A DNA stretch of 64,000 bases from Octopus sinensis (taxonomy: Eukaryota), in NCBI RefSeq assembly GCF_006345805.1, contig NC_043006.1, positions 61,194,001-61,258,000 of the forward strand, written 5' to 3'. The first letter of the stretch is position 1, and each line of letters begins with the position of its first letter. Below are positions 6,199 through 51,835 of the stretch, in pieces. The position numbers were made by a program, and so were the translations under genes. The notes below the pieces were generated by a model. That model had not been told where the DNA came from. It searched no databases and worked only from the letters and a program-made list of their open reading frames with translations.

Positions 6199-6584
6199 AA
6201 GGGGGGTAAAGACCCCCTTCGGTCATGAATGACCATGGGATTGCACCTAGAAAGTTACCCTTCTAGACACAAGTCCGGGCAAAGTTGTTTATGGAAGACC
6301 AGCAGTCGCCCATGCATACCAGTCTCCCCTATCCACGCCACCAGTGTTATCCAAGGGAAAGACAAAGGTCAATACAGCTTGAAACCAGTGACGTCGCAAC
6401 TCATTTCTACAGCTGAGTGAACTGGAGCAACGTGAAATAAAGTGTTTTGCTCAAGAACACAACACGCAGCCCGGTCCGGGATTCGAGCTCACAAATCCCG
6501 GACCGGGCTGCGTGTTGTGTTCTTGAGCAAAACACTTTATTTCACGTTGCTCCAGTTCACTCAGCTGTAGAAATGAGTTGCGAC
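6199..6584 (-). mobile_element. SINE insertion with a 5' fold-back duplication
   Basis: SINE-like body (..AAGTGTTTTGCTCAAGAACACAAC..CCGGGATTCGA); perfect 91-bp inverted repeat 6393-6483/6494-6584; TSD ACTGAAGGTATTA at 6186-6198 and 6583-6595. Confidence 0.85.
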
Positions 6585-13999: not shown

Positions 14000-14525
14000 A
14001 GATATAAGACAAACAAGAGTGAAAAACGATAGAATACTTGTTATATGGTTAAACAATATATTTAAATCGTTATGTTAAAAAAGTTACAAAACTTTGTGTA
14101 TAGTAACATTGTTTTTGGAGAAATATCTGGTTTCGTATTTTCTTTTCAAATTTCTCAAATTTCTGTACCTATATTCTGCCATATCTTCGTTATGGTGAGA
14201 AGTATGAGAGTCCCAGAATAGGGGAAGGTTATCAGGGATGATTTCGGTGTAAGGGAGATAATAGAATATGATGGGAATGACTAGGTTTTATTAATTTAAC
14301 ATGATTTGGTTTAGAAAGAATAGAATGTTGGAATTGGTTAGGTTTTGCTTTATATTTTTTCAGTAAGTTTCCTTATTTAAAAATTTTGGAAATGGTTACG
14401 TTTTAGCTATTTATCTTTCAATGAAGTAGGTTTCCTTATTTAATCCAATTTGTGTTGGTGTTCGAATTGCACATTGATAAAACGGAAAGATTACAAATTG
14501 TGCTTTGCGCATTTCACAATGTATT
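14000..14525 (-). mobile_element. Penelope-like element 3' fragment (same family as 23926 and 28620)
   Basis: ..QFVIFPFYQCAIRTPTQIGLNKETYFIER matches the C-terminus of the two longer copies; followed by a pLTR-like tail with a decayed HHR at 14118-14156. Confidence 0.8.
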
Positions 14526-14794
14526 CCCGAAAGGGTATCATTCTGTATTCTGTGAATGCAATCTGCTATCGGTGCAGAGTACAACTCTGTCTGAGCAATA
14601 ATCCCGTGGACCCTATGTAGTTTTGGTGGCAGCCCAAGCATCTAATGGCATAAATCATTTTCTGAAGCACACGTAAAGTCACATTTGATTTTGAATTTTT
14701 GTTCCTCTTTGTAAAGTAATTCTAATCCTTCCATGATGAGTGTATGAATAACAATAAGATGTTTTAGTTTGACGCTCGGTAAAGTGAGAAAATG

Positions 14795-22740: not shown

Positions 22741-23173
22741 ATAGGATTTGGAGATACATGATCAGTGCCGGATTTTAGTAAAAAATGAAGCCCTGTGCTA
22801 CTTAAGTTACGAGGACCCTTACGTGGTTATAAAGGCATGCATGGTCGGGAAATTAATCCTACTTTTGGTGTGGGGTAGGAAGATAGATGTGCTTAAGAAT
22901 AGCGACCCGTTGATCGAGGGCCTAAAAACAATGGTAAATCAAGCATTTAGTGATAGCGTCAAAGCTATATTTACATTATTTCTGATATCTCTTGTGGCAA
23001 ATTTTTCGATAGTTCTCAGTAATTTGAGACAATCAATTAGCATCACGAAATCTAGCATTTTTTTTTTGCAAAGTATGATGCTTGTTGCATGAAATATTAT
23101 TTGTCCACTTTACACTGAATTTTTTGTAGTTCTTCTGAATGTAGGCGAGAGAAGAGAACCCTAAACATCCGGT

Positions 23174-23252
23174 GTTAGGGTTAGGCGTTAGGGGTTAAGG
23201 GTTAGGGGTTAGGGGCTAGGGCTTAAGGTTAGGGTTTACGGTTAGGGTTTGG
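23174..23252 (+). repeat. Short degenerate interstitial TTAGGG-like array
   Basis: GTTAGGGTTAGGCGTTAGGGGTTAAGGGTTAGGGG..GGTTAGGGTTTGGG. Confidence 0.8.
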
Positions 23253-23439
23253 GATGTGTTACACCGAAAACGACTGGTGTACTTATTCTTTACCAGCGCC
23301 AAAATTAATACCATAGAAATACGTAGAGGGCCGCACAACAACGTGTCGATGGCTGCAGCTTCTCCGTGCATCTGGTACCTTTTAGTACGCATATTTATTG
23401 ACTCTCAGTTGTGTTCCAAAAGTATCATGTAGGAACTTT

Positions 23440-23920: not shown

Positions 23921-23925
23921 GGACC

Positions 23926-25500
23926 TACACAATAACCACTTCATGTTTGACAATACATTTTACCGTCAAAAATCCGGAATTGCTATGGGTACAAGGGCAG
24001 CACCAGTCATTGCGAACTTAACAATGGGATACATGGAAATAATCATTTACCAGGAATCTCTATCAATCTTTGGAAACTCCCTCTCTCAATACATAAAAGA
24101 GAATTGGAAACGATTCCTAGACGATTGTTTCATTCTCTGGAATGAAAACATAGATAAACTCCTAAAATTAAAAACCTATTGAACAGCATAAACCCAAATA
24201 TGCAGTTCACAATGGAATACAACCAAAAGGAGCTCCCGTTCTTGGATATACTAATTAAAAAATTAACCTTAAAATAGAAACAGACATTTTTTACAAAGCC
24301 ACAGACGCCAAACAATACCTTCTTTTTATTCATGCCACCCAAGACACACTAAAACAACATCCCCTTCAACTTGCAAGAAGGATATGCACAATAGTGTCAG
24401 AACAAAATACCAGGAACTTTAGACTGCAAGAACTCAAAAACACCCTAATTGACAGACATTACCCAGCTCAACTCATAGAGGATGGGATCAGACGTGCAAC
24501 AGAAATCAACATAGAAACTTTAAGAAAAGTTCAACACAACAACACACCTTCCCCGAAAATACTACCTTACATAAATACAACCCCAGAAACAAAGAAGCCT
24601 TCACCATCATCACCCAGAATTTACCAATACTTCATAAAAACCCAAAATTAAAGGAAATTCTAAACATACACCAAATCATTAAAAGCTACAAACAGCCTAA
24701 ATCACTTAAAAAGATTCTCACAAAGGCAAAATTGTCTTCTAAAATTACGGATGCAAAGTAAAAAAATGTGGTAGATCGAACTGTGCAACATGTCCTAACC
24801 TATTGAAGGATCAGAATTCTTCTTTAAAGAGGGACAGAAATTTAAGATCAAATCTAACTTTACTTGTGCCTCTGAAAACATAATTTATGTTATTAATGCT
24901 CGGGCTGCCACCAAGACTACGTGGGTTCCACGGGACTATCACTCAGGCGCAGATGCACACTGTATCGACAACAGATTGCATTCCCAGAATATAGAATGAT
25001 ACCTTTTAGTGAGCACATTGAGAAATGCGCAAAGCAACTACTGCCACAATTTTTAATCTTCCCATTTTACCAATGTGCTTTGGATCATCAACACAAATGA
25101 GACTGAACAAGGAAACATTCTTCATTGAAAAGTACAACCATCCGAACATACTGACACAGAGAAATTAACAAGGAAAAGGGAAAAAAAATTTTAAGCGATT
25201 ATCTCCCCTACACCGGAAAAAATCACTCACTACCTCCCCTTATTAGAAATCTCCTGGAAATAAAAAAAACGATAATTCCATGCAATATAAACATAACGTC
25301 ACAAGAAATTTGAAAAGCTACACGCGAAACCGGTAGTTTCTTTAAAATTTTAAAATTATGTCATTTTAAGGAAGGGGAAAAAAAATTTTTCCAATATTCT
25401 CCAGACATCTTGACACAAATATATATATTTTTTAACATTTAAGCCTTCTGTCGTTTTTTCACACTTTACTATTTTCTTATATATTCACCCACGTGCTTTA
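23926..25500 (+). mobile_element. 5'-truncated Penelope-like retroelement (Neptune-like), RT plus GIY-YIG pseudogene
   Basis: FYRQKSGIAMGTRAAPVIANL, WKRFLDDCF, LPFLDILI, CGRSNCATC linker, ENIIYVI..CHQDYVGSTG (GIY-YIG); frameshifted; HHR in the 3' tail. Confidence 0.92.
25303..25342 (+). ncRNA. Minimal type I hammerhead ribozyme with UUGAAAA core
   Basis: AAGAAAT / TTGAAAA / GC-TACAC-GC / GAAA / CCGG / TA / GTTTCTT; 7-bp stem I, palindromic stem III, GUA site. Confidence 0.7.
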
Positions 25501-25513
25501 CCAAACAAACTTT

Positions 25514-25548
<35 letters not shown>

Positions 25549-27605: not shown

Positions 27606-27800
27606 AATATATAGGTAGAAAGATAGATCGATAGATAGATAGATAGATAGATTGATAGATATATGTATGTCTATATGTATATATATGTAAATAAATATCT
27701 ATATATTAATAATAGTAGGAAATATGATTCCAAAATTTATAGGGAAAAATCAATTTAACAATTTTAAATCAAATTTCACAATATAAAATATACATATAAA

Positions 27801-28169
<369 letters not shown>

Positions 28170-28619: not shown

Positions 28620-30520
28620 ATTGTGTATATCTATATATTAAACATATCAATAGCCAGAGATGACTTGGATATGTTCACCTCCAAAAACACATCAAGGAAG
28701 AACAATCAGATTTTATTTGATGTGATTAATTTATATACGAGTATACCTCGTAAATATTGCCTGGACCAATTTCCGGAAGATATTCCAGAAAGGATCAGCA
28801 ACGAATTTATAATTGAATTCGTTGAATTCATCCTACAAAATAACCTCTCCCACTCCATGTTTGACAATACGTTTTAAGACAAAAATCCGGAATTGCCATG
28901 GGCACTAGGGCAGCCCCAGTCATTGCGAACGTAACAATGAGCTATCTGGAAATAATAATACACCAGGAATCTTTAACTACCTTTGGGAACCCCCTTTCCC
29001 AATACATAAAATATAATTGGAAAAGGTTCCTAGACGACTGTTTCATACTCTGGAATGGAAACACAAACACGTGAAAATCAAAAGACTATTGAACAACGTA
29101 AACCCAAACACAGTTCACAAAGGTGTACAACCAAAAATAGCTTCCATTCTTGGATATACTAATTAAAAAAATCAACCTAAAAAGAGAAATGGACATATTT
29201 TACAAAAGCACAGGCGCCAAACAATATCAACTATTTCATTCATGCCACCCAAGACACACTAAAACAAACATCCTCTTCAACATTGCAAGAAGGATATGCA
29301 AATAGTGTCAGAAAGAAATACCATAGACTTTAGACTCCAAGAACTCAAAAACACCCTATTTGACAGATACTACCCAATTCAACTCATAGAGGATGGAATC
29401 AGACGTGCAACAGAAATCGACATAGAAACCTCAAGCAAAGTTCAACACAGCAACATACCTTCCCCGAAAATACTGCCGCACATATCTCCATACAACTCCA
29501 CAAACTAAGAAGGCTTTACCATCATCACCCAAAAATTACCAACGTTACATAAGGACCCCAAATTAAAGGAAATTTTACACACACATACGATTATTAAAAG
29601 GCACGAACACCCGAAATCACTAAAAGAGGTCCACACAAAAGCAAAATTATTTTCCAAAATAAGGAATGCAAAAGTGAAACAAAATGCGGTGGCCCAAATT
29701 GCGCAACATGCCCAAAACTTATAGAAGGACTAGAATTTCTTTTCAAGGAGGGACAAATATTCAAAATCAAATCTGACTTTACTTGCCCTTCAGAAAATCG
29801 GATTTATGTCATTAGATGCTCGGGCTGCCACCAAAACTACGTAGGGTCCACGGGATTATCTCTCAGACGCAGATGCACTTTGCATCGAGAGCAGATTGCC
29901 TTCCCAGAATACAGAATGATGCCCTATAGTGAATATATTGAGAAATGCGCAAAGCAACTACTACCACAATTTGAAATCTTTCCATTTTATCAATGTGCCA
30001 CTGGAACGCCAACACAAGTTACATTAAATAAGGAAACCTACTTCATTGAAAAATATAAGCCAAAGCTTAAACATTTCTGTCATTTTTAAATAAGGAAACT
30101 TTCCTCATTGAAAAAAATATAATGCAAAAGCTAACCACTTTTAACATTAATAAATCATTAAAACCTTGTCTTTCTGAACCAAATCATGTTAAATTAATAA
30201 AACCTAGTCATTCCCAACATATTCTATTATCTCCCTTACACCGAAAAATCCCTGATTACCTTCCCCTGTCTGGGACCGTCGTACTTCACAACATTGCGAA
30301 ATGATGACACAATATAGGTAAATAAATTTGAAAAATTTGTAAAGGAAATACGAAACCATTTTTTTCTCCGAAAACAATGTTACTATACTCAAAATTTTAT
30401 AACATTTTTGTAGCATAACGATTTAAATATATTCTTTAACCTTTAACCATATAACGCAAGCGTTCTGTTTTGCCGCTCTATTTTGTCTTTTATACATCCA
30501 ACCACGTGCCGACTCTTTCA
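28620..30520 (+). mobile_element. Penelope-like retroelement copy 2 (Neptune-like), pseudogene
   Basis: [62 protein letters not shown]; colinear with 23926-25500; decayed HHR at about 30330-30368. Confidence 0.92.

Positions 30521-41255: not shown

Positions 41256-41257
<2 letters not shown>
40545..41257 (-). mobile_element. Internally deleted mariner remnant
   Basis: Minus-strand ..LPHPPDFAPADFHRF.. (YSPDLAPxDF-like), a decayed HHDNA region and a C-terminal FQKRMECVER. Confidence 0.7.
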
Positions 41258-41300
<43 letters not shown>

Positions 41301-41301
<1 letters not shown>

Positions 41302-42336
41302 TAGCAGTATCACCCGGTGTTGCTTGGGTTTGTTTCGACCCTTTATAATTGGAATTTTCGAAAAGTAAAATTTGTGCATTATGGAACTTGTTATTCCCTT
41401 CAAGTGAACATTTTTCCGGTTGAAATACACCGAAAAATGGTGACACATCAGTCAAAAATCGTAAAAAATAGGGATTTTCATAGAAAAAAGCACCTTTTTG
41501 ATGTAAATAATTTTTGGTGTTAACATGGTCCGATTTGAATTTTATCTACTACAGAATGAAGAGCAAGCCTTCTTCTATCATACTCTCAATTTTGGTTAAC
41601 TTGCACTGCAGGGTCTCGAAAGAGATAGTGTTAGTTGAAGGCTACGAAACCTGCCACACACAGACAACTTCAGCTTTATATATAGAGATTTGCTACACAC
41701 TACTTCCCATCATTAATAATGAAACTTCGTAGATCCAAAAGTTAAACACACAGACACACACACAGATACACAGAAGTTGTGTTTTATATATAGATTTCTC
41801 ATCGGAGATTTCAGGGGAGGGTTTCAAGGAGTCGCTGGCGATGTATCGTGATGATCATAAATCCGGCCTGCTAAAATTTGGTTAAAGTGATTCAAACTAC
41901 AGACTCAACGCAAAATGGTCACATTTAATTCAAAGCGTTAAAAATGTTATGAAAGCAAAGTACAAACGATTATTACGAAAAAACCCTCAAGGCTACATAC
42001 CGAAAATTCATTTCTTTGCCGAATTTCTACAATGTTTACGGCGATTCGTTTTTATATCTTGATTTTTTATTTTTCATGCAATTTACGCATGCTTGCACGC
42101 GTGGTGAACACAGTTCACGTCAAACAGCTGACTGAGTAAAATTCACTATTCAATGCATGGGATAAGGCCTAAACAAACACATTATGGATTTTTGCCCTTG
42201 CGAGAGAAATTTCGGAACAGAAATAGAGCAGTTCAATTTTCATTCGCTTAAGCTTTAAGTGACCCATTTTTGGTGCTTCTACGATTTGTTGGCTAGGAGG
42301 AGATGTGCCGTGAAGTTAAACACACAGACACACAAG

Positions 42337-42392
<56 letters not shown>

Positions 42393-43398
42393 CTAGCAGT
42401 ATCACCCGGTGTTGCTTGGGTTTGTTTCGACCCTTTATAATTGGAATTTTCGAAAAGTAAAATTTGTGCATTTTTCCGGTTGAAATACACCGAAAAATGG
42501 TGACACATCAGTCAAAAATCGTAAAAAATAGGGATTTTCATAGAAAAAAGCACCTTTTTGATGTAAATAATTTTTGGTGTTAACATGGTCCGATTTGAAT
42601 TTTATCTACTACAGAATGAAGAGCAAGCCTTCTTCTATCATACTCTCAATTTTGGTTAACTTGCACTGCAGGGTCTCGAAAGAGATAGTGTTAGTTGAAG
42701 GCTACGAAACCTGCCACACACAGACAACTTCAGCTTTATATATAGAGATTTGCTACACACTACTTCCCATCATTAATAATGAAACTTCGTAGATCCAAAA
42801 GTTAAACACACAGACACACACACAGATACACAGAAGTTGTGTTTTATATATATAGATTTCTCATCGGAGATTTCAGGGGAGGGTTTCAAGGAGTCGCTGG
42901 CGATGTATCGTGATGATCATAAATCCGGCCTGCTAAAATTTGGTTAAAGTGATTCAAACTACAGACTCAACGCAAAATGGTCACATTTAATTCAAAGCGT
43001 TAAAAATGTTATGAAAGCAAAGTACAAACGATTATTACGAAAAAACCCTCCAGGCTACATACCGAAAATTCATTTCTTTGCCGAATTTCTACAATGTTTA
43101 CGGCGATTCGTTTTTATATCTTGATTTTTTATTTTTCATGCAATTTACGCATGCTTGCACGCGTGGTGAACACAGTTCACGTCAAACAGCTGACTGAGTA
43201 AAATTCACTATTCAATGCATGGGATAAGGCCTAAACAAACACATTATGGATTTTTGCCCTTGCGAGAGAAATTTCGGAACAGAAATAGAGCAGTTCAATT
43301 TTCATTCGCTTAAGCTTTAAGTGACCCATTTTTGGTGCTTCTACGATTTGTTGGCTAGGAGGAGATGTGCCGTGAAGTTAAACACACAGACACACAAG

Positions 43399-43402
<4 letters not shown>
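41301..43402 (-). mobile_element. Tandem head-to-tail pair of a composite non-autonomous Helitron (about 1.04 and 1.01 kb)
   Basis: Near-identical units 41301-42340 and 42393-43402 separated by (TA)n; minus-strand 3' end ACCCAAGCAACACCGGGT hairpin then GATACTG-CTAG; internal ATCTCTATATATAAA 5'-type ends. Confidence 0.85.
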
Positions 43403-43429
<27 letters not shown>

Positions 43430-44239
43430 AATTGATAGAAATGGCAAAACAGCAAAAGAATGAACGAAATCTCGATATTATGTAAATAGAAGAATTTATT
43501 TGAAAATATGAAATGTGACAATTATTCGGTAGCCATGATAAAACTCCGAGTTTTTAATGTCAGGGCGGTTTTTAACTGCTAATTTATTATTTCATGCAGC
43601 CATTCCGCTTCATCATTATGCTCTACAGCTCAGTGGGGTTGCTGGCTAAGTCACCGATGACTCGTCGGTTTCACAATGCCACTTGTTAATCATTCTGGGT
43701 AATAATCTATCTGGGAAATTTTTTGCTTGTCCATATCATAATTTCATTAATTACTATTATAATCCTTATCTTACTTACTTGTTCACAACTATAGTTTCAC
43801 TATTATTACTATAATTATAAATTATAATTATATTACTACTGTAAGGTCAAGAAGTTCTAATATTGTCTTTCCTGATTTCTTTAGACAACAAATAATTGCA
43901 GATTTACGGCTGTTGGTTTAGCTACAGATGATGCCGCAGTGCCAAATAGAAGAGCGGGCTTGTTGTGTCTACTAACATAGGCTACTCGATTAGTCTGGTA
44001 GTTGACATACCTGGCGGTTTGAATGGGAGTGTGGGAGTGTATTTTTGAGAGGAGGAAAAACCTTGTATACCTGACATTTGATCCGCATAGGAACATGCCT
44101 ATTTTTCTGCAGCCACTATAGTATCCTGTCAAATGAAGAACTAACTCTTCTTATTCGGTTTGTGATTTTCAGGTTCAGTCGTGCATTATCTGAGTACATA
44201 CTGATAAATTATTTCAGTGCTTTGCACTGAAATAATTTA

Positions 44240-47200
44240 GTACTTCATATCTAAGCACTTCATATCTAAGCGCATCATATCTCAGCACTTCATAACTAAG
44301 CGCATCATATCTCAGCACTTCAAATCTAAGCGCTTCATATCTGAGCACTTCATATCTAAGCGTTTCATATCTCAGCACTTCATACCTCAGCACTTCATAT
44401 CTAAGCGAATCATATTTCAGCACTTCATATCTAAGCACTTCATCTCTGAACACTTCATAACTGAGCACTTCATATCTAAGCACTTCATATCTAAGCACTT
44501 CATATCTTAGCACTTCATATCTGAGCACATTCATATCTAAGGACTTCATATCTGAGCACTTCATATCTGAGCGCATTATATCACAGCACTTCATATCTAA
44601 GCACTTCATATCTGAGCACTTCATATCTAAGCGCTTCATATCTCAGGACTTCATATCTAAGCACTTCATATCTGAGCAATTCATATCTAAGCACTTCATA
44701 TCTGAGCACTTCATATATCAGGACTTCATATCTAAGCACTTCATATCTCAGCACTTCATATCTGAGCACTTCATATCTGCGCACTTCATATCTAAGCGCT
44801 TCGCATCTCAGCACATCATATCCAAGAACTTCATATCTAAGCACTTCATATCTGAGCACTTCATATCTAAGCACTTCATATCTAAGCACTTCATATCTAA
44901 GCGCTTCATATCTGAGCACTTCATATCTGAGCGCATCATATCACAGCACTTCATATCTAAGCACTTCATATCTGAGCACTTCATATCTAAGCGCTTCATA
45001 TCTCAGGACTTCATATCTAAGCACTTCATATCTGAGCACTTCATATCTAAGCACTTCATATCTAAGCACTTCATATCTGAGCACTTCATATATCAGGACT
45101 TCATATCTAAGCACTTCATATCTGAGCACTTCATATCTGAGCACTTCATATCTAAGCACTTCATATCTAAGCACTTCATATCTAAGCGCTTCATATCTAA
45201 GCACTTCACATCTGAGCACTTCAATTCTAAGCACTTCATATCTGAGCACTTCATATCTAAACACTTCATATCTAAGCACTTCATATCGGAGCACTTCATA
45301 TCTAAGCGTATCATATCACAGCACTTCATATCTAAGCACTTCATATCTGAGCACTTCATATCTAAGCGCTTCATATCTCAGGACTTCATATCTAAGCATT
45401 TCATATCTGAGCACTTCATATCTAAGCACTTCATATCTAAGCACTTCATATCTGAGCACTTCATATATCAGGACTTCAGATCTAAGGACTTCATATCTCA
45501 GCACTTCATATCTGAGCACTTCATATCTGCGCACTTCATATCTAAGCGCTTCGCATCTCAGCACATCATATCCAAGAACTTCATATCTAAGCACTTCATA
45601 TCTAAGCACTTATATCTAAGCGCTTATATCTAAGCACTCATATTAATCACTTCATATCTAAGCACTTCATATCTGAGCACTTCAATCTAAGAGATCATAA
45701 ATATCCAGCACTTCATATCTAACACTTCATATCTGAGTACTTCATATCTGAGCAGTTTTTTTTTTTTTTCATCTAGCATTCATATCTCAGGACTTCATAT
45801 CTAAGCACTTATATATCTGAGCACTTTATCTAAGCACTTCATATCTAAGCACTTCATATCTGAGCACTTCATATATCAGGACTTCATATCTCAGCACTTC
45901 ATATCTAAGCACTTCATATCTCAGCACTTCATATCTGAGCATCATATCTGCGCACTTCATATCTAAGCGCTCGCATCTCAGCTCATCATATCTGAGAACT
46001 TCATATCTAAGCACTTCATATCTCAGCACTTCATATCTAAGCACTTCATATCTAAGCACTTCATATCTAAGCACTTCATATCTAAGCGCTTCATATCTGA
46101 GCACTTCATATCTAAGCACTTCATATCTAAGCATTTCATTCTAAGTACTTCATATCTAAGCACTTCATATCTCAGCACCATATTAAGCACTTCATATCTA
46201 AGCACTTCATATCTGAGCACTTCATGTCTAAGCCACTTCCTTTCTAAGCATTCATATCTGAGCACTTCATATCTGAGCACTTCATATCTGATCACTTCAT
46301 ATCTGAGCACTTCATATCTAAGCACTTCATATCTGAGCACGTCAATCTAAGCACTTCATATCTAAGCTCTTCTATCTGAGAACCTCATATCTGAGCACTT
46401 CATATCTGAGCACATCATATCTAAGCACTTCATACTGAGGACTTCATATCAAGCACTTCATATCTGAGCACTTCATATTTGAGCACTTCATATCTAAGCA
46501 CTTCATATCTGAGCACTTCATATTTGAGCACTTCATATCTAATCACTTCATATCTGAGCACTTCATATCTGAGCACTCATATCTGAGAACTTCATATCTG
46601 AGCACTTCATATCTAAGCACTTCATATCTAAGAAAATTCAGAACTTCATATAAGCACTTCATATCTAAGCGCTTCATATCTGAGCCACTCATATCTAAGC
46701 ACTTCAATATCTGAGCACCATATCAAGCGCTTCATATCCAGGACTTCATATCTAAGCATTTCATATCTGAGCACTTCATATCTAAGCACTTCATATCTAA
46801 GCACTTCATATCTGAGCACTTCATATATCAGGACTTCATATCTAAGGACTTCATATCTCAGCACTTCATATCTGAGCACTTCATATCTGCGCACTTCATA
46901 TCTAAGCGCTTCGCATCTCAGCACATCATATCCAAGAACTTCATATCTAAGCACTTCATATCTGAGCACTTCATATCTAAGCACTTCATATCTAAGCACT
47001 TCATATCTAAGCGCTTCATATCTAAGCACTTCATATCTAATCACTTCATATCTAAGCACTTCATATCTGAGCACTTCATATCTAAGCGCATCATATCACA
47101 GCACTTCATATCTAAGCACTTCATATCTGAGCACTTCATATCTAAGCACTTCATATCTAAGCACTTCATTTCTGAGCACTTCATATATCAGGACTTCATA

Positions 47201-49050
47201 TCTCAGCACTTCATATCTAAGCACTTCATATCTCAGCACTTCATATCTGAGCACTTCATATCTGCGCACTTCATATCTAAGCGCTTCGCATCTCAGCACA
47301 TCATATCTGAGAACTTCATATCTAAGCACTTCATATCTGAGCACTTCATATCTAAGCACTTCATATCTAAGCACTTCATATCTAAGCACTTCATATCTAA
47401 GCGCTTCATATCTGAGCACTTCATATCTAAGCACTTCATATCTAAGCACTTCATATCTAAGCACTTCATATCTAAGCACTTCATATCTCAGCACCTCATA
47501 TCTAAGCACTTCATATCTAAGCACTTCATATCTGAGCACTTCATATCTAAGCACTTCCTTTCTAAGCACTTCATATCTGAGCACTTCATATCTGAGCACT
47601 TCATATCTGAGCACTTCATATCTAAGCACTTCATATCTGAGCACTTCATATCTAAGCACTTCATATCTAAGCTCTTCATATCTGAGAACCTCATATCTGA
47701 GCACTTCATATCTGAGCACATCATATCTAAGCACTTCATATCTGAGGACTTCATATCTAAGCACTTCATATCTGAGCACTTCATATTTGAGCACTTCATA
47801 TCTAAGCACTTCATATCTGAGCACTTCATATTTGAGCACTTCATATCTAATCACTTCATATCTGAGCACTTCATATCTGAGCACTTCATATCTGAGAACT
47901 TCATATCTGAGCACTTCATATCTAAGCACTTCATATCTAAGAACTTCATATCTAAGCACTTCATATCTAAGCGCTTCATATCTGAGCACTTCATATCTAA
48001 GCACTTCATATCTGAGCACTTCATATCTAAGCACTTTATATCTAAGCACTTCATATCTAAGCACTTCATATCTGAGAACCTCATATCTGAGCACTTCATA
48101 TATGTGCACATCATATCTAAGCACTTCATATCTGAGCACTTCATATCTAAGCACTTCATATCTGAGCACTTCATATTTGAGCACTTCATATCTAATCACT
48201 TCATATCTGAGCACTTCATATCTAAGCATTTCATATCTGAGCACTTCCTATCTAAGCGCTTCATATCTGAGCTCTTCATATCTAAGCGCTTCGTATCTGA
48301 GCACTTCATATCTAAGCACTTCATATATGAGAACTTCATATCTGAGAACTTCATTTCTGAGGACATCATATCTAAGCACTTCATATCTAAGCACTTCATA
48401 TCTGAGAACTTCATATCTAAGCACTTCATATCTGAGCACTTCATATCTAAGCACTTCATATCTGAGCACTTCATATCTAAGCACTTCATATCTGCGCACT
48501 TCATATGTGAGCACTTCATATCTAAGCACTTCATATCTAAGCACTTCATATCTAAGCACTTCATATTTGAGCACTTCATATCTGAGCAATTCATATCTGA
48601 GCTCTTCATATCTAAGTACTTCATATCTGAGCGCTTCATATCTAAGCACTTCATATCTAAGTACTTCATATCTGAGCACTTCATATCTAAGCACTTCGTA
48701 TTCGAGCACTTCATATCAAACACTTCATATCTGAGTATTTCATATTGAAACACTTCATATCTGAGGACTTCATATCTAAGCATTTTATATTGAAGCACTT
48801 CACATCTAAGCACTTCATATCTGAGCACTTCATATCTGAGCACTCCATATCTAAGCACTTCATATCTCAGCACCTCATATCTAAGCACTTCATATCTAAG
48901 CACTTCATATCTGAGCACTTCATATCTAAGCACTTCCTTTCTAAGCACTTCATATCTGAGCACTTCATATCTGAGCACTTCATATCTGAGCACTTCATAT
49001 CTAAGCACTTCATATCTGAGCACTTCATATCTAAGCACTTCCTATCTAAG
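44240..49050. repeat. 15-bp tandem satellite (GCACTTCATATCT[A/G/C]A), about 320 units, with higher-order blocks
   Basis: Direct sequence; reads (YEVLR)n on minus and (STSYL)n on plus. Confidence 0.98.
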
Positions 49051-50349
49051 TGATGTTTTCTTCTTTCACGGGGAGAGGTAGATTTTCCGCACGATGGTAA
49101 TGGTATTCAGTTTTACTGATGTTAATATTTAAACTCAAGCGTTGTACAGTTCTTGATCGGAGGAAGGAAAGACGCGAGTTGAAGATACGAGGTCATTTTT
49201 TGATAAAGAATTATTTTCGTCTCGCCTTGGAAAGATGTTACTGAGTGGTCAATCATCGCTCCCTGTCAGTGGCCAGGAAAATATAATCGCTATGATAAGT
49301 TTCATTATTCTCTATAGATTAATCTTTCACCCATGTTTCAAGATAAATCCGCCAGTATATTAACATTCAGTAACATTTCTCGTTCTGCAAATTTCACCAA
49401 AGGTAATATTTTAGTCTTTCCGCACATCATGGATAATGAAATTTGAAGTGTTGAGTGTCAGTCTCATTAACAATGCAGCACATACACAAGAAGAGTTGCC
49501 AATAAGTACCAATTATACTTACAAATTAGATAGGCATCTACAACCTCATCTATATATAATTGAATTAGTCCTGTGTTGTGAATTTGCTTCGGAATCATAG
49601 CTACCAAGAAGTATCTTGAAAGACATATGCCATCGCTAACTTCATTTGTCTTCTCTGAATTTCCGGCAATTTGGATCTAATCATATATCATGTATCATTT
49701 TTAATTACTTCGTCATTCAGAAATATGTATAGCAAAACAAATTGAGAAAATTAATAAAAAAAGAAGAAGACATTTAAAAATGCTTACACAAATACACGTA
49801 CCCACGCCTAACAGAAACTCTTCCACGCGCACATATTTACGAATAACTACATGTCTGATAATTAGATTACTGTAGCAAAATTACAGCATTATACTGTAGT
49901 TTACGATCATGTTAAGAATAGCCATTGAACAATTTACAAAATTAAATGTTTCCTGGAGCTAAATAACAATAACATTCATCCTAATCAGGACTGCCGCAGT
50001 ATGACAGCATATAATCTTTACTGTAGAGTACTGTTACTGAAAGTCTCTCGTTCAAGAGATGTAGAAATAATAATTATTCTCTTGTTCGAAGGTTATATGG
50101 ATACAGTTTGTGTATCAAATAGCTAACTTAAGGCGATGGCCTCATGGAGCTAATAAGCGGACAGCTTTTTTCTTATTTTTATAAGAATGCCATATTAGTA
50201 TGGCGATAACTATTATTTTCCGGGAACGCTGCCGCTGTTCTCTTTTAGAGAGACTTAGTTATTTTAATATTTCTATTATTGAAAACAAGTGGATGTATTC
50301 CACCGAAACTAGGTAAATAAAACCATCGAACAGAGATTGTCGGAAGCGA

Positions 50350-50428
50350 CACCTACTGGCTGGCTACGCTGCATTGAAAAGGGGCAATACTCCGAAACGC
50401 GTCTGTAGCTGCCGGTCAAGTAGTGTGG
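50350..50428 (+). ncRNA. Type I hammerhead ribozyme, U3:A8 core variant (copy 1)
   Basis: Stem I GCTGCA/TGTAGC extended by GGCTGGC/GCCGGTC and CTACT/AGTAG; core TTGAAAA 50374-50380; stem II GGGG-CAATA-CTCC; GAAA; CGCG; GTC site, predicted cut after 50403. Confidence 0.85.
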
Positions 50429-50711
50429 AGCGACTGACCTCCCTTGTTCGAAGGTTATATGGATACAGTTTGTGTATCAAATAGCTAACTTAAGGCGATG
50501 GCCTCATGGAGCTAATAGGCGGACAGCTTTTTTCTTATTTTTATAAGAATGCCATATTAGTATGGCGATAACTATTATTTTCCGGGAACGCTGCCGCTGT
50601 TCTCTTTTAGAGAGACTTAGTTATTTTAATATTTCTATTATTGAAAACAAGTGGATGTATTCCACCGAAACTAGGTAAATAAAACCATCGAACAGAGATT
50701 GTCGGAAGCGA

Positions 50712-50790
50712 CACCTACTGGCTGGCTACGCTGCATTGAAAAGGGGCAATACTCCGAAACGCGTCTGTAGCTGCCGGTCAAGTAGTGTGG
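50712..50790 (+). ncRNA. Type I hammerhead ribozyme, U3:A8 core variant (copy 2)
   Basis: Identical to copy 1 at +362; predicted cut after 50765. Confidence 0.85.
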
Positions 50791-51835
50791 AACGACTGAC
50801 CTCCCTTGTTCGAAGGTTATATGGATACAGTTTGTGTATCAAATAGCTAACTTAAGGCGATGGCCTCATGGAGCTAATAAGCGGACAGCTTTTTTCTTAT
50901 TTTTATAAGAATGCCATATTAGTATGGCGATAACTATTATTTTCCGGGAACGCTGCCGCTGTTCTCTTTTAGAGAGACTTAGTTATTTTAATATTTCTAT
51001 TAATAATTATTCTATTTACGAGAAATATTAATGCTATCTTTCTAAGTGAACATTTGTTCCTCCTCATCAATCACCAGTTTTACGAGGAATGCCTTTCATC
51101 AAATTCGTGCTAATTCCGGACTAAGATATCGTTTTATTGCCCCATTCTTTGATCATTACACCTGTTGTTACTGCCTCAATTACTGAATTTCATTGGCTCT
51201 GACAGAAATATGAGTTTATTTGGACCGAATATTTAAGCAAATATATTGTTTGTACCATTCGAATCTAAATTGATGAGCATTTCAACGTAATAAAATTCAG
51301 ATCTTGCCGTCCATGCACGATAAGAGGGATCCAAATCTATTTTTCATTTTCCGTTAAATATCTCCAATCTCGAAGTTCATATTCGATTGTTACTCTGTTA
51401 ATATCCATCCTTTTTACTGCGACCATTCTATCGGCTTATCCTTCCTAATCCTTAATTTCCCTCAGTCTTTAATTTCTATCTTGTTCTCACTGAACTTCGC
51501 TATTTTTTCTCCCACTTCTGGTATAAATTCCTATCATTTGGTTTTTTTAAATTTCTCTCTTTCATACTTGCCTTTCTTTTCCTCAGTTACTATTCCTTCA
51601 TCCTGCTGCAAACATCCCCGCTGCGGTCTAAGTTACCAGGGCCTACATTCCCATTCTTTCGTATTGAAATTTTCATCGACAGCAGGCGCCTTCTAATTCC
51701 CTTCTTTTCCACGTGTTAACACCAGACAAAAGTTTCTTCTTTCATTTCTCTCACTCATTCTCTCCTTCTCTCTCTCTCTCACACACTCTCTCTTTCTCCA
51801 CACACACAAAAATACACACTTATACACACAGGGAC

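What the first reader, a model, noticed from the sequence alone, without database searches (positions are those of the whole stretch)
25303..25342. The Penelope-like family carries the same UUGAAAA-core hammerhead, a candidate autonomous partner
Seen: just downstream of the GIY-YIG ORF end lies AAGAAAT-TTGAAAA-GCTACACGC-GAAA-CCGG-TA-GTTTCTT. Decayed homologues sit at the equivalent position in the other copies (14118-14156 minus, with perfect 7-bp stem I GAGAAAT/ATTTCTC; about 30330-30368). Known: PLE pLTRs carry minimal HHRs, and PLEs are the proposed mobilisers of non-LTR retrozymes. Inference: the rare core is ancestral in this PLE lineage and links it to the 362-bp retrozyme as a helper/parasite pair.
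Basis: partly seen in the sequence, partly recalled or inferred. Interest (0 to 1): 0.75.

Follow-up and report, generated by a model that had tools for sequence, protein, structure and literature searches.

The report
Penelope hammerhead with swapped core pair
A young Penelope-type jumping gene carries a small hammerhead RNA motif, predicted to cut itself, in both of its end repeats; its swapped core pair is already published and is shared by many elements in this genome, so it does not single this gene out as the helper of the nearby 362-base repeat, which is likely copied by some Penelope-type enzyme.

Summary
The motif is real. It is a minimal type I hammerhead with a U3-A8 core, present in 41 of 41 aligned copies of a young Penelope-like element (PLE; family F1, 3.99-kb unit) and sitting in both pseudo-LTRs. 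The 14 kb and 30 kb relics belong to an older sister family that also has U3-A8. U3-A8 in PLE hammerheads was published in 2014. It is not rare here: about 20,900 matches above control, against 42,300 for C3-G8. At least five PLE families carry it, and related families use A3-U8 or U3·G8. The 362-bp retrozyme shows a PLE footprint: (TA)n targets, 5'-joined inverted arms and two fixed 3' ends (13 of 15 pairs). But it has no detectable homology to F1 outside the core and a different tail length (62 vs 42 nt), and a 73%-identical relative has U3·G8. PLE mobilisation is likely; F1 as the specific helper is unsupported. The scan earlier noted U3-A8 and A3-U8 PLE hammerheads in other genomes, and this footprint for other retrozymes in this genome. 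Cleavage is untested.

The parts
25303..25342 (+). Minimal type I hammerhead motif with U3-A8 core; predicted cut after 25335
   Evidence: Sequence; core in 41 of 41 copies; shuffle test; fold of a family-typical copy gives helices I and II
23924..25526 (+). 5'-truncated, frameshifted copy of young PLE family F1 (part of RT, GIY-YIG region, 3' pseudo-LTR), ending at the long 3' end and followed by (TA)n
   Evidence: 92-98% identity to other copies; no frame over 130 aa; 3' end 25526
25485..25526 (+). 42-nt PLE 'tail' between the two fixed 3' ends (about 150 and 192 nt after the predicted cut)
   Evidence: 41 of 45 alignment ends in 29 loci fall at 148-151 or 186-196; the other 4 run on into the next ORF start
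14002..14734 (-). Old copy of sister PLE family F2; broken hammerhead relic at 14118-14156
28832..30493 (+). Old copy of sister PLE family F2; broken hammerhead relic at 30330-30368
50078..51002 (+). 362-bp non-coding tandem repeat (2.55 units), a young retrozyme-type element
   Evidence: 99.3% unit identity; 905 candidates genome-wide, best copies 99-100%; boundaries
50368..50409 (+). Retrozyme hammerhead A: full-size type I architecture (6-bp helix I plus extension, 4-bp helix II) with U3-A8 core; repeated at 50730-50771
   Evidence: Sequence; fold; shuffle-test hit
50272..50321 (+). Retrozyme motif B: second U3-A8 hammerhead-like core with a longer helix II and a poor helix I; repeated 362 nt on; may be inactive
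   Evidence: Sequence; not a hit in the structured scan; only helix II folds

Best explanation
The 40 bases are the hammerhead motif of the pseudo-LTR of a young, (TA)n-targeting Penelope-like retrotransposon, predicted to self-cleave weakly and likely needing a partner copy or the element's own protein; the 362-bp retrozyme is likely copied by a PLE enzyme, but the shared U3-A8 pair does not identify which one. Shown: a full F1 unit is about 3.99 kb from hammerhead to hammerhead, with the motif after the stop codon and about 212 nt before the next start codon. Inferred: cutting at two successive pseudo-LTRs would release one unit-length RNA. Insertions end 150 or 192 nt beyond the cut site, so the template for reverse transcription must be uncut read-through RNA or a circle, primed at two internal sites next to short TA runs. 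The 3-8 pair behaves as a labile position that mostly keeps Watson-Crick geometry (U-A, A-U, C-G, occasionally U.G) and likely changed separately in PLE and retrozyme lineages.
For: Both pseudo-LTRs carry the motif in 5 of 6 fetched long loci: spacing 3,989-3,995 nt in 4, 3,480 in one shorter unit. RT (PF00078, E 2e-7) and a near-intact 706-codon frame. Core in 41 of 41 copies; no change listed at 25310-25335 in covering contigs of 4 of 4 runs with four organism codes. Compensatory changes between families: outer helix I pair A-U to G-C in F2, second helix II pair C-G to U-A in L223. Genome counts above the reversed-pattern control: C3-G8 42,309; U3-A8 20,876; U3.G8 3,077; C3.A8 2,915; A3-U8 2,371. 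Related PLE families with U3.G8 (L243) and A3-U8 (9 of 9 copies that keep the region, out of 12; also L269, L281, L286). Two-ended footprint in F1 and in the retrozyme (13 of 15 inverted pairs) matches the tail mechanism in PMC11167929. Retrozyme vs PLE-region alignments stay within shuffle range for 9 of 9 regions and for the 5 PLE or candidate-PLE rows of the 12. A 72.7%-identical retrozyme relative (L181) has U3.G8.
Against: No cleavage or expression was shown. Helix II is only 2 bp in F1 and 1 bp in F2, and the isolated motif folds no better than shuffles (z -0.03). Fixation in a family of 95-99% identical copies shows youth, not selection. The genome descriptors demand no stems and matches can overlap. 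The U3.G8 reading of the retrozyme lineage rests on one locus. The PLE tree is unrooted, with only 1 of 13 inner branches strongly supported, and most families were sampled by their core. The Pfam GIY-YIG model did not hit F1 and hit F3 below its cut-off.
Confidence: 0.78

Rival explanations
1. One reading: F1 (or its F1/F2 branch) is the specific autonomous helper of the 362-bp retrozyme, and both inherited U3-A8 from one ancestor.
For: Both are young (95-99%), insert in (TA)n with the same two-armed footprint and occur in the same 4 of 4 runs laid, chosen as holders of F1. The retrozyme has two U3-A8 cores. Retrozyme-pLTR kinship is published for Xenopus (10.64898/2026.07.22.740005).
Against: No homology outside the core (score 33 vs shuffles 29.8 +/- 4.5); tail 62-63 vs 42 nt; different hammerhead architecture; U3.G8 in a retrozyme relative; other young TA-targeting candidates exist (F3 with a 748-codon frame; a C3-G8 family with a 723-codon RT frame).
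Confidence: 0.15
2. The retrozyme is carried by another family of the same U3-A8 PLE clade, most plausibly the more abundant F3.
For: F3 gave the only hint of likeness: 25 nt at 84% between the retrozyme's long end and the stretch before F3's short end (E 0.30; score 37 vs 27.2 +/- 3.8). F3 is young, TA-targeting and two-ended.
Against: The score is below the best of 60 shuffles (41); the F3 tail is about 38 nt by eye, not 62.
Confidence: 0.2
3. The F1 motif is a vestigial, non-cutting remnant kept for another reason (protein binding, promoter or 5' UTR sequence) or simply carried along.
For: Tiny helix II; 1-bp helix II and a GUU site in F2; PMC4209133 reports low in vitro activity of PLE minimal hammerheads; PMC11167929 found the hammerhead dispensable for insertion in vitro and no RNA-seq reads ending at the site.
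Against: Core boxes, palindromic helix III and the U-H site persist across families about 50% identical in protein, while helices I and II and the 3-8 pair change in paired fashion. The Anolis PLE hammerhead does cut when protein is present (PMC11167929).
Confidence: 0.17
4. Chance match in AT-rich DNA.
For: The heptamer alone is near chance; the relaxed U3-A8 descriptor has a 45% background.
Against: 3 vs 0.02 in window shuffles; 5,973 vs 12 genome-wide; fixed position in pseudo-LTRs of many families.
Confidence: 0.02

Closest known systems
Minimal type I hammerheads in PLE pseudo-LTRs, including the U3-A8 variant of Schistosoma mansoni Cercyon (Cervera and De la Pena 2014, PMC4209133; parts 1-2 of 4 read, abstract to start of methods; supplements not seen)
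   Same: Position in both pseudo-LTRs, type I layout, G10.1-C11.1 pair, small palindromic helix III, U3-A8 covariation (about 1,300 hits reported there).
   Different: Helix II is 2 bp rather than 7-8 bp, there is no extra base between 9 and 10.1, helix I is 7 bp; related families here also use A3-U8 and U3.G8.
Natural U3-A8 hammerheads (Perreault et al. 2011, PMC3088659; passages read)
   Same: Same compensatory core pair, stated there to be active in vitro.
   Different: Here it is a family-level trait of animal retroelements, in thousands of copies.
Poseidon PLE of Anolis carolinensis (Frangieh et al. 2024, PMC11167929; parts 1-2 of 4 read, main text to start of methods)
   Same: Hammerhead near the pLTR-ORF junction, AT-rich targets, two 3' ends bounding a tail.
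   Different: C3-G8 core; its RT start sites lie inside the ORF and are not homologous to the target, whereas F1's two ends lie before the start codon at short TA runs.
Metazoan non-LTR retrozymes (Cervera and De la Pena 2020, PMC7229834, passages read; Li, Clavereau and Pollet 2026, bioRxiv 10.64898/2026.07.22.740005, parts 1-3 of 5 read, abstract to discussion; supplements closed)
   Same: Short non-coding tandem units with a type I hammerhead; PLEs proposed as mobilisers.
   Different: U3-A8 core, a second hammerhead-like motif per unit, a PLE-type inverted two-ended footprint, and no pLTR homologue found here (24 of 57 Xenopus families matched known elements, 21 of the 22 being PLEs).
Neptune/Nematis-type EN+ PLEs (Craig et al. 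2021, PMC8557442; passages read)
   Same: C-terminal endonuclease region, Cx2-5CxxC linker, partial tandems, inverted 5'-truncated copy, tail at one end.
   Different: Tail of 42 nt is at the upper edge of the 30-40 bp described; clade not fixed by a reference tree.

Membership tests
PLE minimal type I hammerhead | Conserved core boxes with a Watson-Crick 3-8 pair and a U-H cleavage site | tested here: met
   U3-A8 core in 41 of 41 copies
PLE minimal type I hammerhead | Helix I, G10.1-C11.1 pair, short palindromic helix III | tested here: met
   compensatory changes
PLE minimal type I hammerhead | Located in both pseudo-LTRs of full-length elements | tested here: met
   5 of 6 long loci have two same-strand copies flanking the coding region
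PLE minimal type I hammerhead | Long helix II with an unpaired base between 9 and 10.1 (common, not universal, in PMC4209133) | tested here: not met
   2-bp helix II, no extra base
PLE minimal type I hammerhead | Site-specific self-cleavage | not testable with these tools
   Needs an in vitro assay or RNA-end mapping
EN+ Penelope-like element, Neptune/Nematis type | RT domain followed by a C-terminal GIY-YIG endonuclease | tested here: met
   PF00078 above cut-off; the Pfam GIY-YIG model missed F1 and hit F3 below cut-off; motif visible in the translation; nearest Atlas clusters carry RT/GIY-YIG, score 0.98
EN+ Penelope-like element, Neptune/Nematis type | Cx2-5CxxC linker before the endonuclease | tested here: met
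   Cx4CxxC in the translation; definition from PMC8557442
EN+ Penelope-like element, Neptune/Nematis type | Partial tandem pseudo-LTRs, inverted 5'-truncated arm, tail at one end | tested here: met
EN+ Penelope-like element, Neptune/Nematis type | RT tree placement among named PLE clades | not tested
   No reference PLE proteins were in hand; one search holds only sequences of this genome
Non-LTR retrozyme (362-bp repeat) | Non-coding tandem units of 150-450 bp, each with a type I hammerhead, dispersed in many loci | tested here: met
Non-LTR retrozyme (362-bp repeat) | Expressed as self-cleaved circular RNA | not testable with these tools
   Only assembled contigs were available
F1 / retrozyme helper-parasite pair | Shared sequence at the 3' recognition region or pseudo-LTR | tested here: not met
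   Local score within shuffle range
F1 / retrozyme helper-parasite pair | Same target and insertion geometry | tested here: inconclusive
   Both use (TA)n and two-ended inverted arms, but so do other families; tail 42 vs 62-63 nt
F1 / retrozyme helper-parasite pair | Overlapping time of activity | tested here: met
   Best copies 95-99% and 99-100% identical; F3 also has near-identical copies and a long open frame
F1 / retrozyme helper-parasite pair | Direct mobilisation of the retrozyme RNA by F1 protein | not testable with these tools
   Needs an in vitro target-primed reverse transcription assay

The most novel reading that the evidence does not exclude
This PLE clade is a natural experiment in which whole families have moved the hammerhead's 3-8 pair through U-A, A-U and U.G states while keeping activity, and an enzyme of this clade (F1 or F3) copies the 362-bp retrozyme from a circle by priming at two fixed internal sites. 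Near-intact PLE reading frames, a young retrozyme and mapped start sites would then give a direct bench test of the PLE-retrozyme helper hypothesis.
Probability: 0.3. Interest if true: 0.6.

Novelty: new member of a known kind. Interest (0 to 1): 0.3.

Why it matters
The motif extends a published class rather than opening a new one. Two points have some value. First, searches that require C3-G8 would miss roughly a third or more of the hammerhead-like motifs in this genome, including those of the U3-A8 and A3-U8 PLE families examined here and of this retrozyme. Second, a shared core variant is a poor marker of helper-parasite pairing because the 3-8 pair changes between families; insertion footprints and 3' recognition sequences are better markers. 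The mapped ends make the open question of which enzyme moves animal retrozymes testable.

Tried and rejected
Rfam scan of the window: no hammerhead family among 137 matches at E <= 5. My early reading that U3-A8 is the genome-wide norm came from a tight descriptor (41 of 5,973 with C3) and was rejected by the relaxed descriptors. Tail length as a helper marker: weak, since it differs among families and may depend on the template. Search for a C3-G8 relative of F1: 0 of 31 loci picked by C3-G8 matches hit the F1 protein; flanks were short and some matches are chance. The C3-G8 motif in L249 is on the opposite strand from the PLE frame and is not its hammerhead. The L182 match lies in coding sequence. 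Expression: no RNA holder listed; runs were contigs only, so ends and circles cannot be seen. One recalled paper on 3-8 pair exchanges was not held. Literature searches for a cephalopod PLE hammerhead or retrozyme and for a natural A3-U8 core found none in the held library; subscription papers and supplements were not seen. No alignment or tree of the retrozyme's relatives was built, so the order of core changes in that lineage is open.

Full report
Setting. The window comes from a 2.72-Gb animal genome, AT-rich and full of microsatellites. Earlier scan notes call it an octopus; I did not test that.

1. The observation. The motif is at 25303-25342 as described: 7-bp helix I, core with U3 and A8, 2-bp helix II, GAAA box, palindromic helix III and a U-H site with the predicted cut after 25335. 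The heptamer alone is near chance (37 vs 25.7). A structured scan finds 3 hits in the window against a mean of 0.02 in 300 shuffles, and a tight genome descriptor finds 5,973 matches against 12 for the reversed pattern. Rfam has no hammerhead hit here.

2. The element. A search with the 3' region gave 1,677 candidates; the 40 scored are 95-100% identical. In 41 arms aligned from 30 loci (some loci overlap or are near-duplicates, and all are best matches) the core is invariant, and 40 have a U-A pair where the window copy has U.G. A family-typical copy folds into helices I and II, though no better than shuffles; the window copy's private G favours a competing hairpin. The window copy (23924-25526) is 5'-truncated and frameshifted, so it is probably inert. 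[quoted passage not shown] In 5 of 6 long loci the motif occurs twice on one strand, 3,989-3,995 nt apart in four, once after the stop and once about 212 nt before the start codon. It is thus the pseudo-LTR hammerhead.

3. The other window copies. The 14 kb and 30 kb copies belong to an older sister family, F2 (best relatives 82-85% identical). Of 32 aligned F2 arms, 25 keep the core intact, 31 have U3 and none has C3; helix I has a compensatory outer pair, helix II is a single pair and the site is GUU. Both window relics are broken.

4. Is the core rare? U3-A8 in PLE hammerheads is in print (PMC4209133), as is natural U3-A8 covariation (PMC3088659). With one relaxed, stem-free descriptor, matches above the reversed-pattern control are: C3-G8 42,309 (47,414 minus 5,105); U3-A8 20,876 (38,125 minus 17,249); U3.G8 3,077; C3.A8 2,915; A3-U8 2,371. 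The two common Watson-Crick states dominate, which supports a constrained pair, and U3-A8 is about 29% of the total. It sits in the terminal repeats of at least five PLE families: F1 with its variants, F2, F3, FA and FB, at about 49-86% amino-acid identity to F1. F3 is the most common in the tight list (56 of the first 100 vs 16 for F1, hand count). None of 31 loci picked by C3-G8 matches hit the F1 protein. Related families differ: L243 has U3.G8, and the L249 family, picked by protein and not by core, has A3-U8 in 9 of 9 copies that keep the region (12 examined); three more PLE-linked loci have A3-U8. In a 16-row protein tree L249 and L243 fall between the U-A families (support 83/96 and 91/93; unrooted; 1 of 13 branches strong). 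U3-A8 as the old state of this clade is plausible, but the pair is labile.

5. The retrozyme link. The 362-bp repeat (50078-51002) is young (905 candidates). In 30 loci (26 distinct insertions) most arms end in (TA)n at one of two positions 62-63 nt apart. Of 15 loci with 5'-joined inverted arms, 13 have one short and one long end, and none has two of the same. F1 does the same with ends 42 nt apart: 41 of 45 alignment ends fall at the two sites, and arms of one insertion again take different ends. This is the PLE tail signature, which PMC11167929 traces to two internal RT start sites, so PLE mobilisation of the retrozyme is likely; earlier scan notes say the same for other retrozymes of this genome. 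The signature is not specific to F1: F3, FA, FB and C3-G8 families show it too. The retrozyme has no detectable homology to F1 or to 8 other PLE regions, nor to 5 further PLE or candidate-PLE regions (5 of the 12 rows; the other 7 rows are not PLE loci and are not used). The only hint is a 25-nt, E 0.30 match to F3. Its main hammerhead has the full-size architecture rather than F1's minimal one, and a relative with 72.7% identity over 220 nt has U3.G8, which suggests the retrozyme lineage changed this pair on its own; this rests on one locus. For the pairing: both elements are young, and both are present in 4 of 4 runs laid, which carry four organism codes and were chosen as F1 holders.

6. 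Mechanism. Shown: position, fixation, paired changes, insertion ends. Inferred: weak self-cleavage needing a dimer or the element's protein (by analogy with PMC4209133 and PMC11167929) would trim multimeric transcripts to one 3.99-kb unit. Because insertions run 150 or 192 nt past the cut site, the copied template must be uncut RNA or a circle. Untested: cleavage, expression and the identity of the retrozyme's helper.

7. Verdict. Observation confirmed, interpretation partly supported. It is a new member of a known kind. The PLE-retrozyme connection is already proposed in print (PMC7229834; bioRxiv 10.64898/2026.07.22.740005), and the shared core does not pick out F1. The family-level switching of the 3-8 pair, including A3-U8, is the most interesting by-product; the scan has seen A3-U8 in two other genomes. 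Supplements of the cited papers were not seen and may list further core variants. Interest 0.3.

Noticed in passing
L249:1375-1420 (minus); L269, L281, L286 near 1500: PLE families related to F1 (36-63% amino-acid identity over the matched parts) carry the same small hammerhead layout with an A3-U8 core: 9 of 9 copies that keep the region in the L249 family, and about 2,400 matches above control genome-wide. Not found in the held literature; the scan noted A3-U8 in two other genomes.
   Followed up: partly
L243:4440-4490: PLE with 51% amino-acid identity to F1 and a U3.G8 wobble core about 205 nt after its coding end; similar motifs at L242 and L244.
   Followed up: partly
window 50272-50321: Second U3-A8 hammerhead-like motif in each retrozyme unit; the element's long 3' end falls exactly at its 5' edge.
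   Followed up: partly
window 50068-50080 and 51001-51013: 13-nt direct repeat around the window's retrozyme array, a candidate target-site duplication; this copy is unusual in having one arm and no (TA)n flank.
   Followed up: partly
L194, L207, L236-L241, L251, L255: Other short repeats whose hammerheads have C3-G8, U3.G8 or C3.A8 cores appear by eye to share 3' hairpin modules with the 362-bp retrozyme; no alignment or tree was built.
   Followed up: no
L101 (minus) near 1532: In family F3 the core is directly preceded by an AT-rich tract ending in AG, like a splice acceptor; PMC4209133 describes an intron ending at helix I in Drosophila virilis Penelope.
   Followed up: no
L229 (minus) 2175 onward: 723-codon frame with an RT that does not match the F1 protein (by eye Naiad-like), a C3-G8 hammerhead, (TA)n targets and a tail of about 72 nt: another candidate helper.
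   Followed up: no
window 44140-49000: Long 15-bp-period minisatellite that gives spurious open frames of up to 700 codons.
   Followed up: no
window 41256-43430: Near-identical direct duplication of about 1.1 kb (96.7%).
   Followed up: no
window 23170-23255: Degenerate telomere-like hexamer repeats upstream of the F1 copy.
   Followed up: no
window 6393-6584 and 27781-28097: Long perfect or near-perfect palindromes.
   Followed up: no
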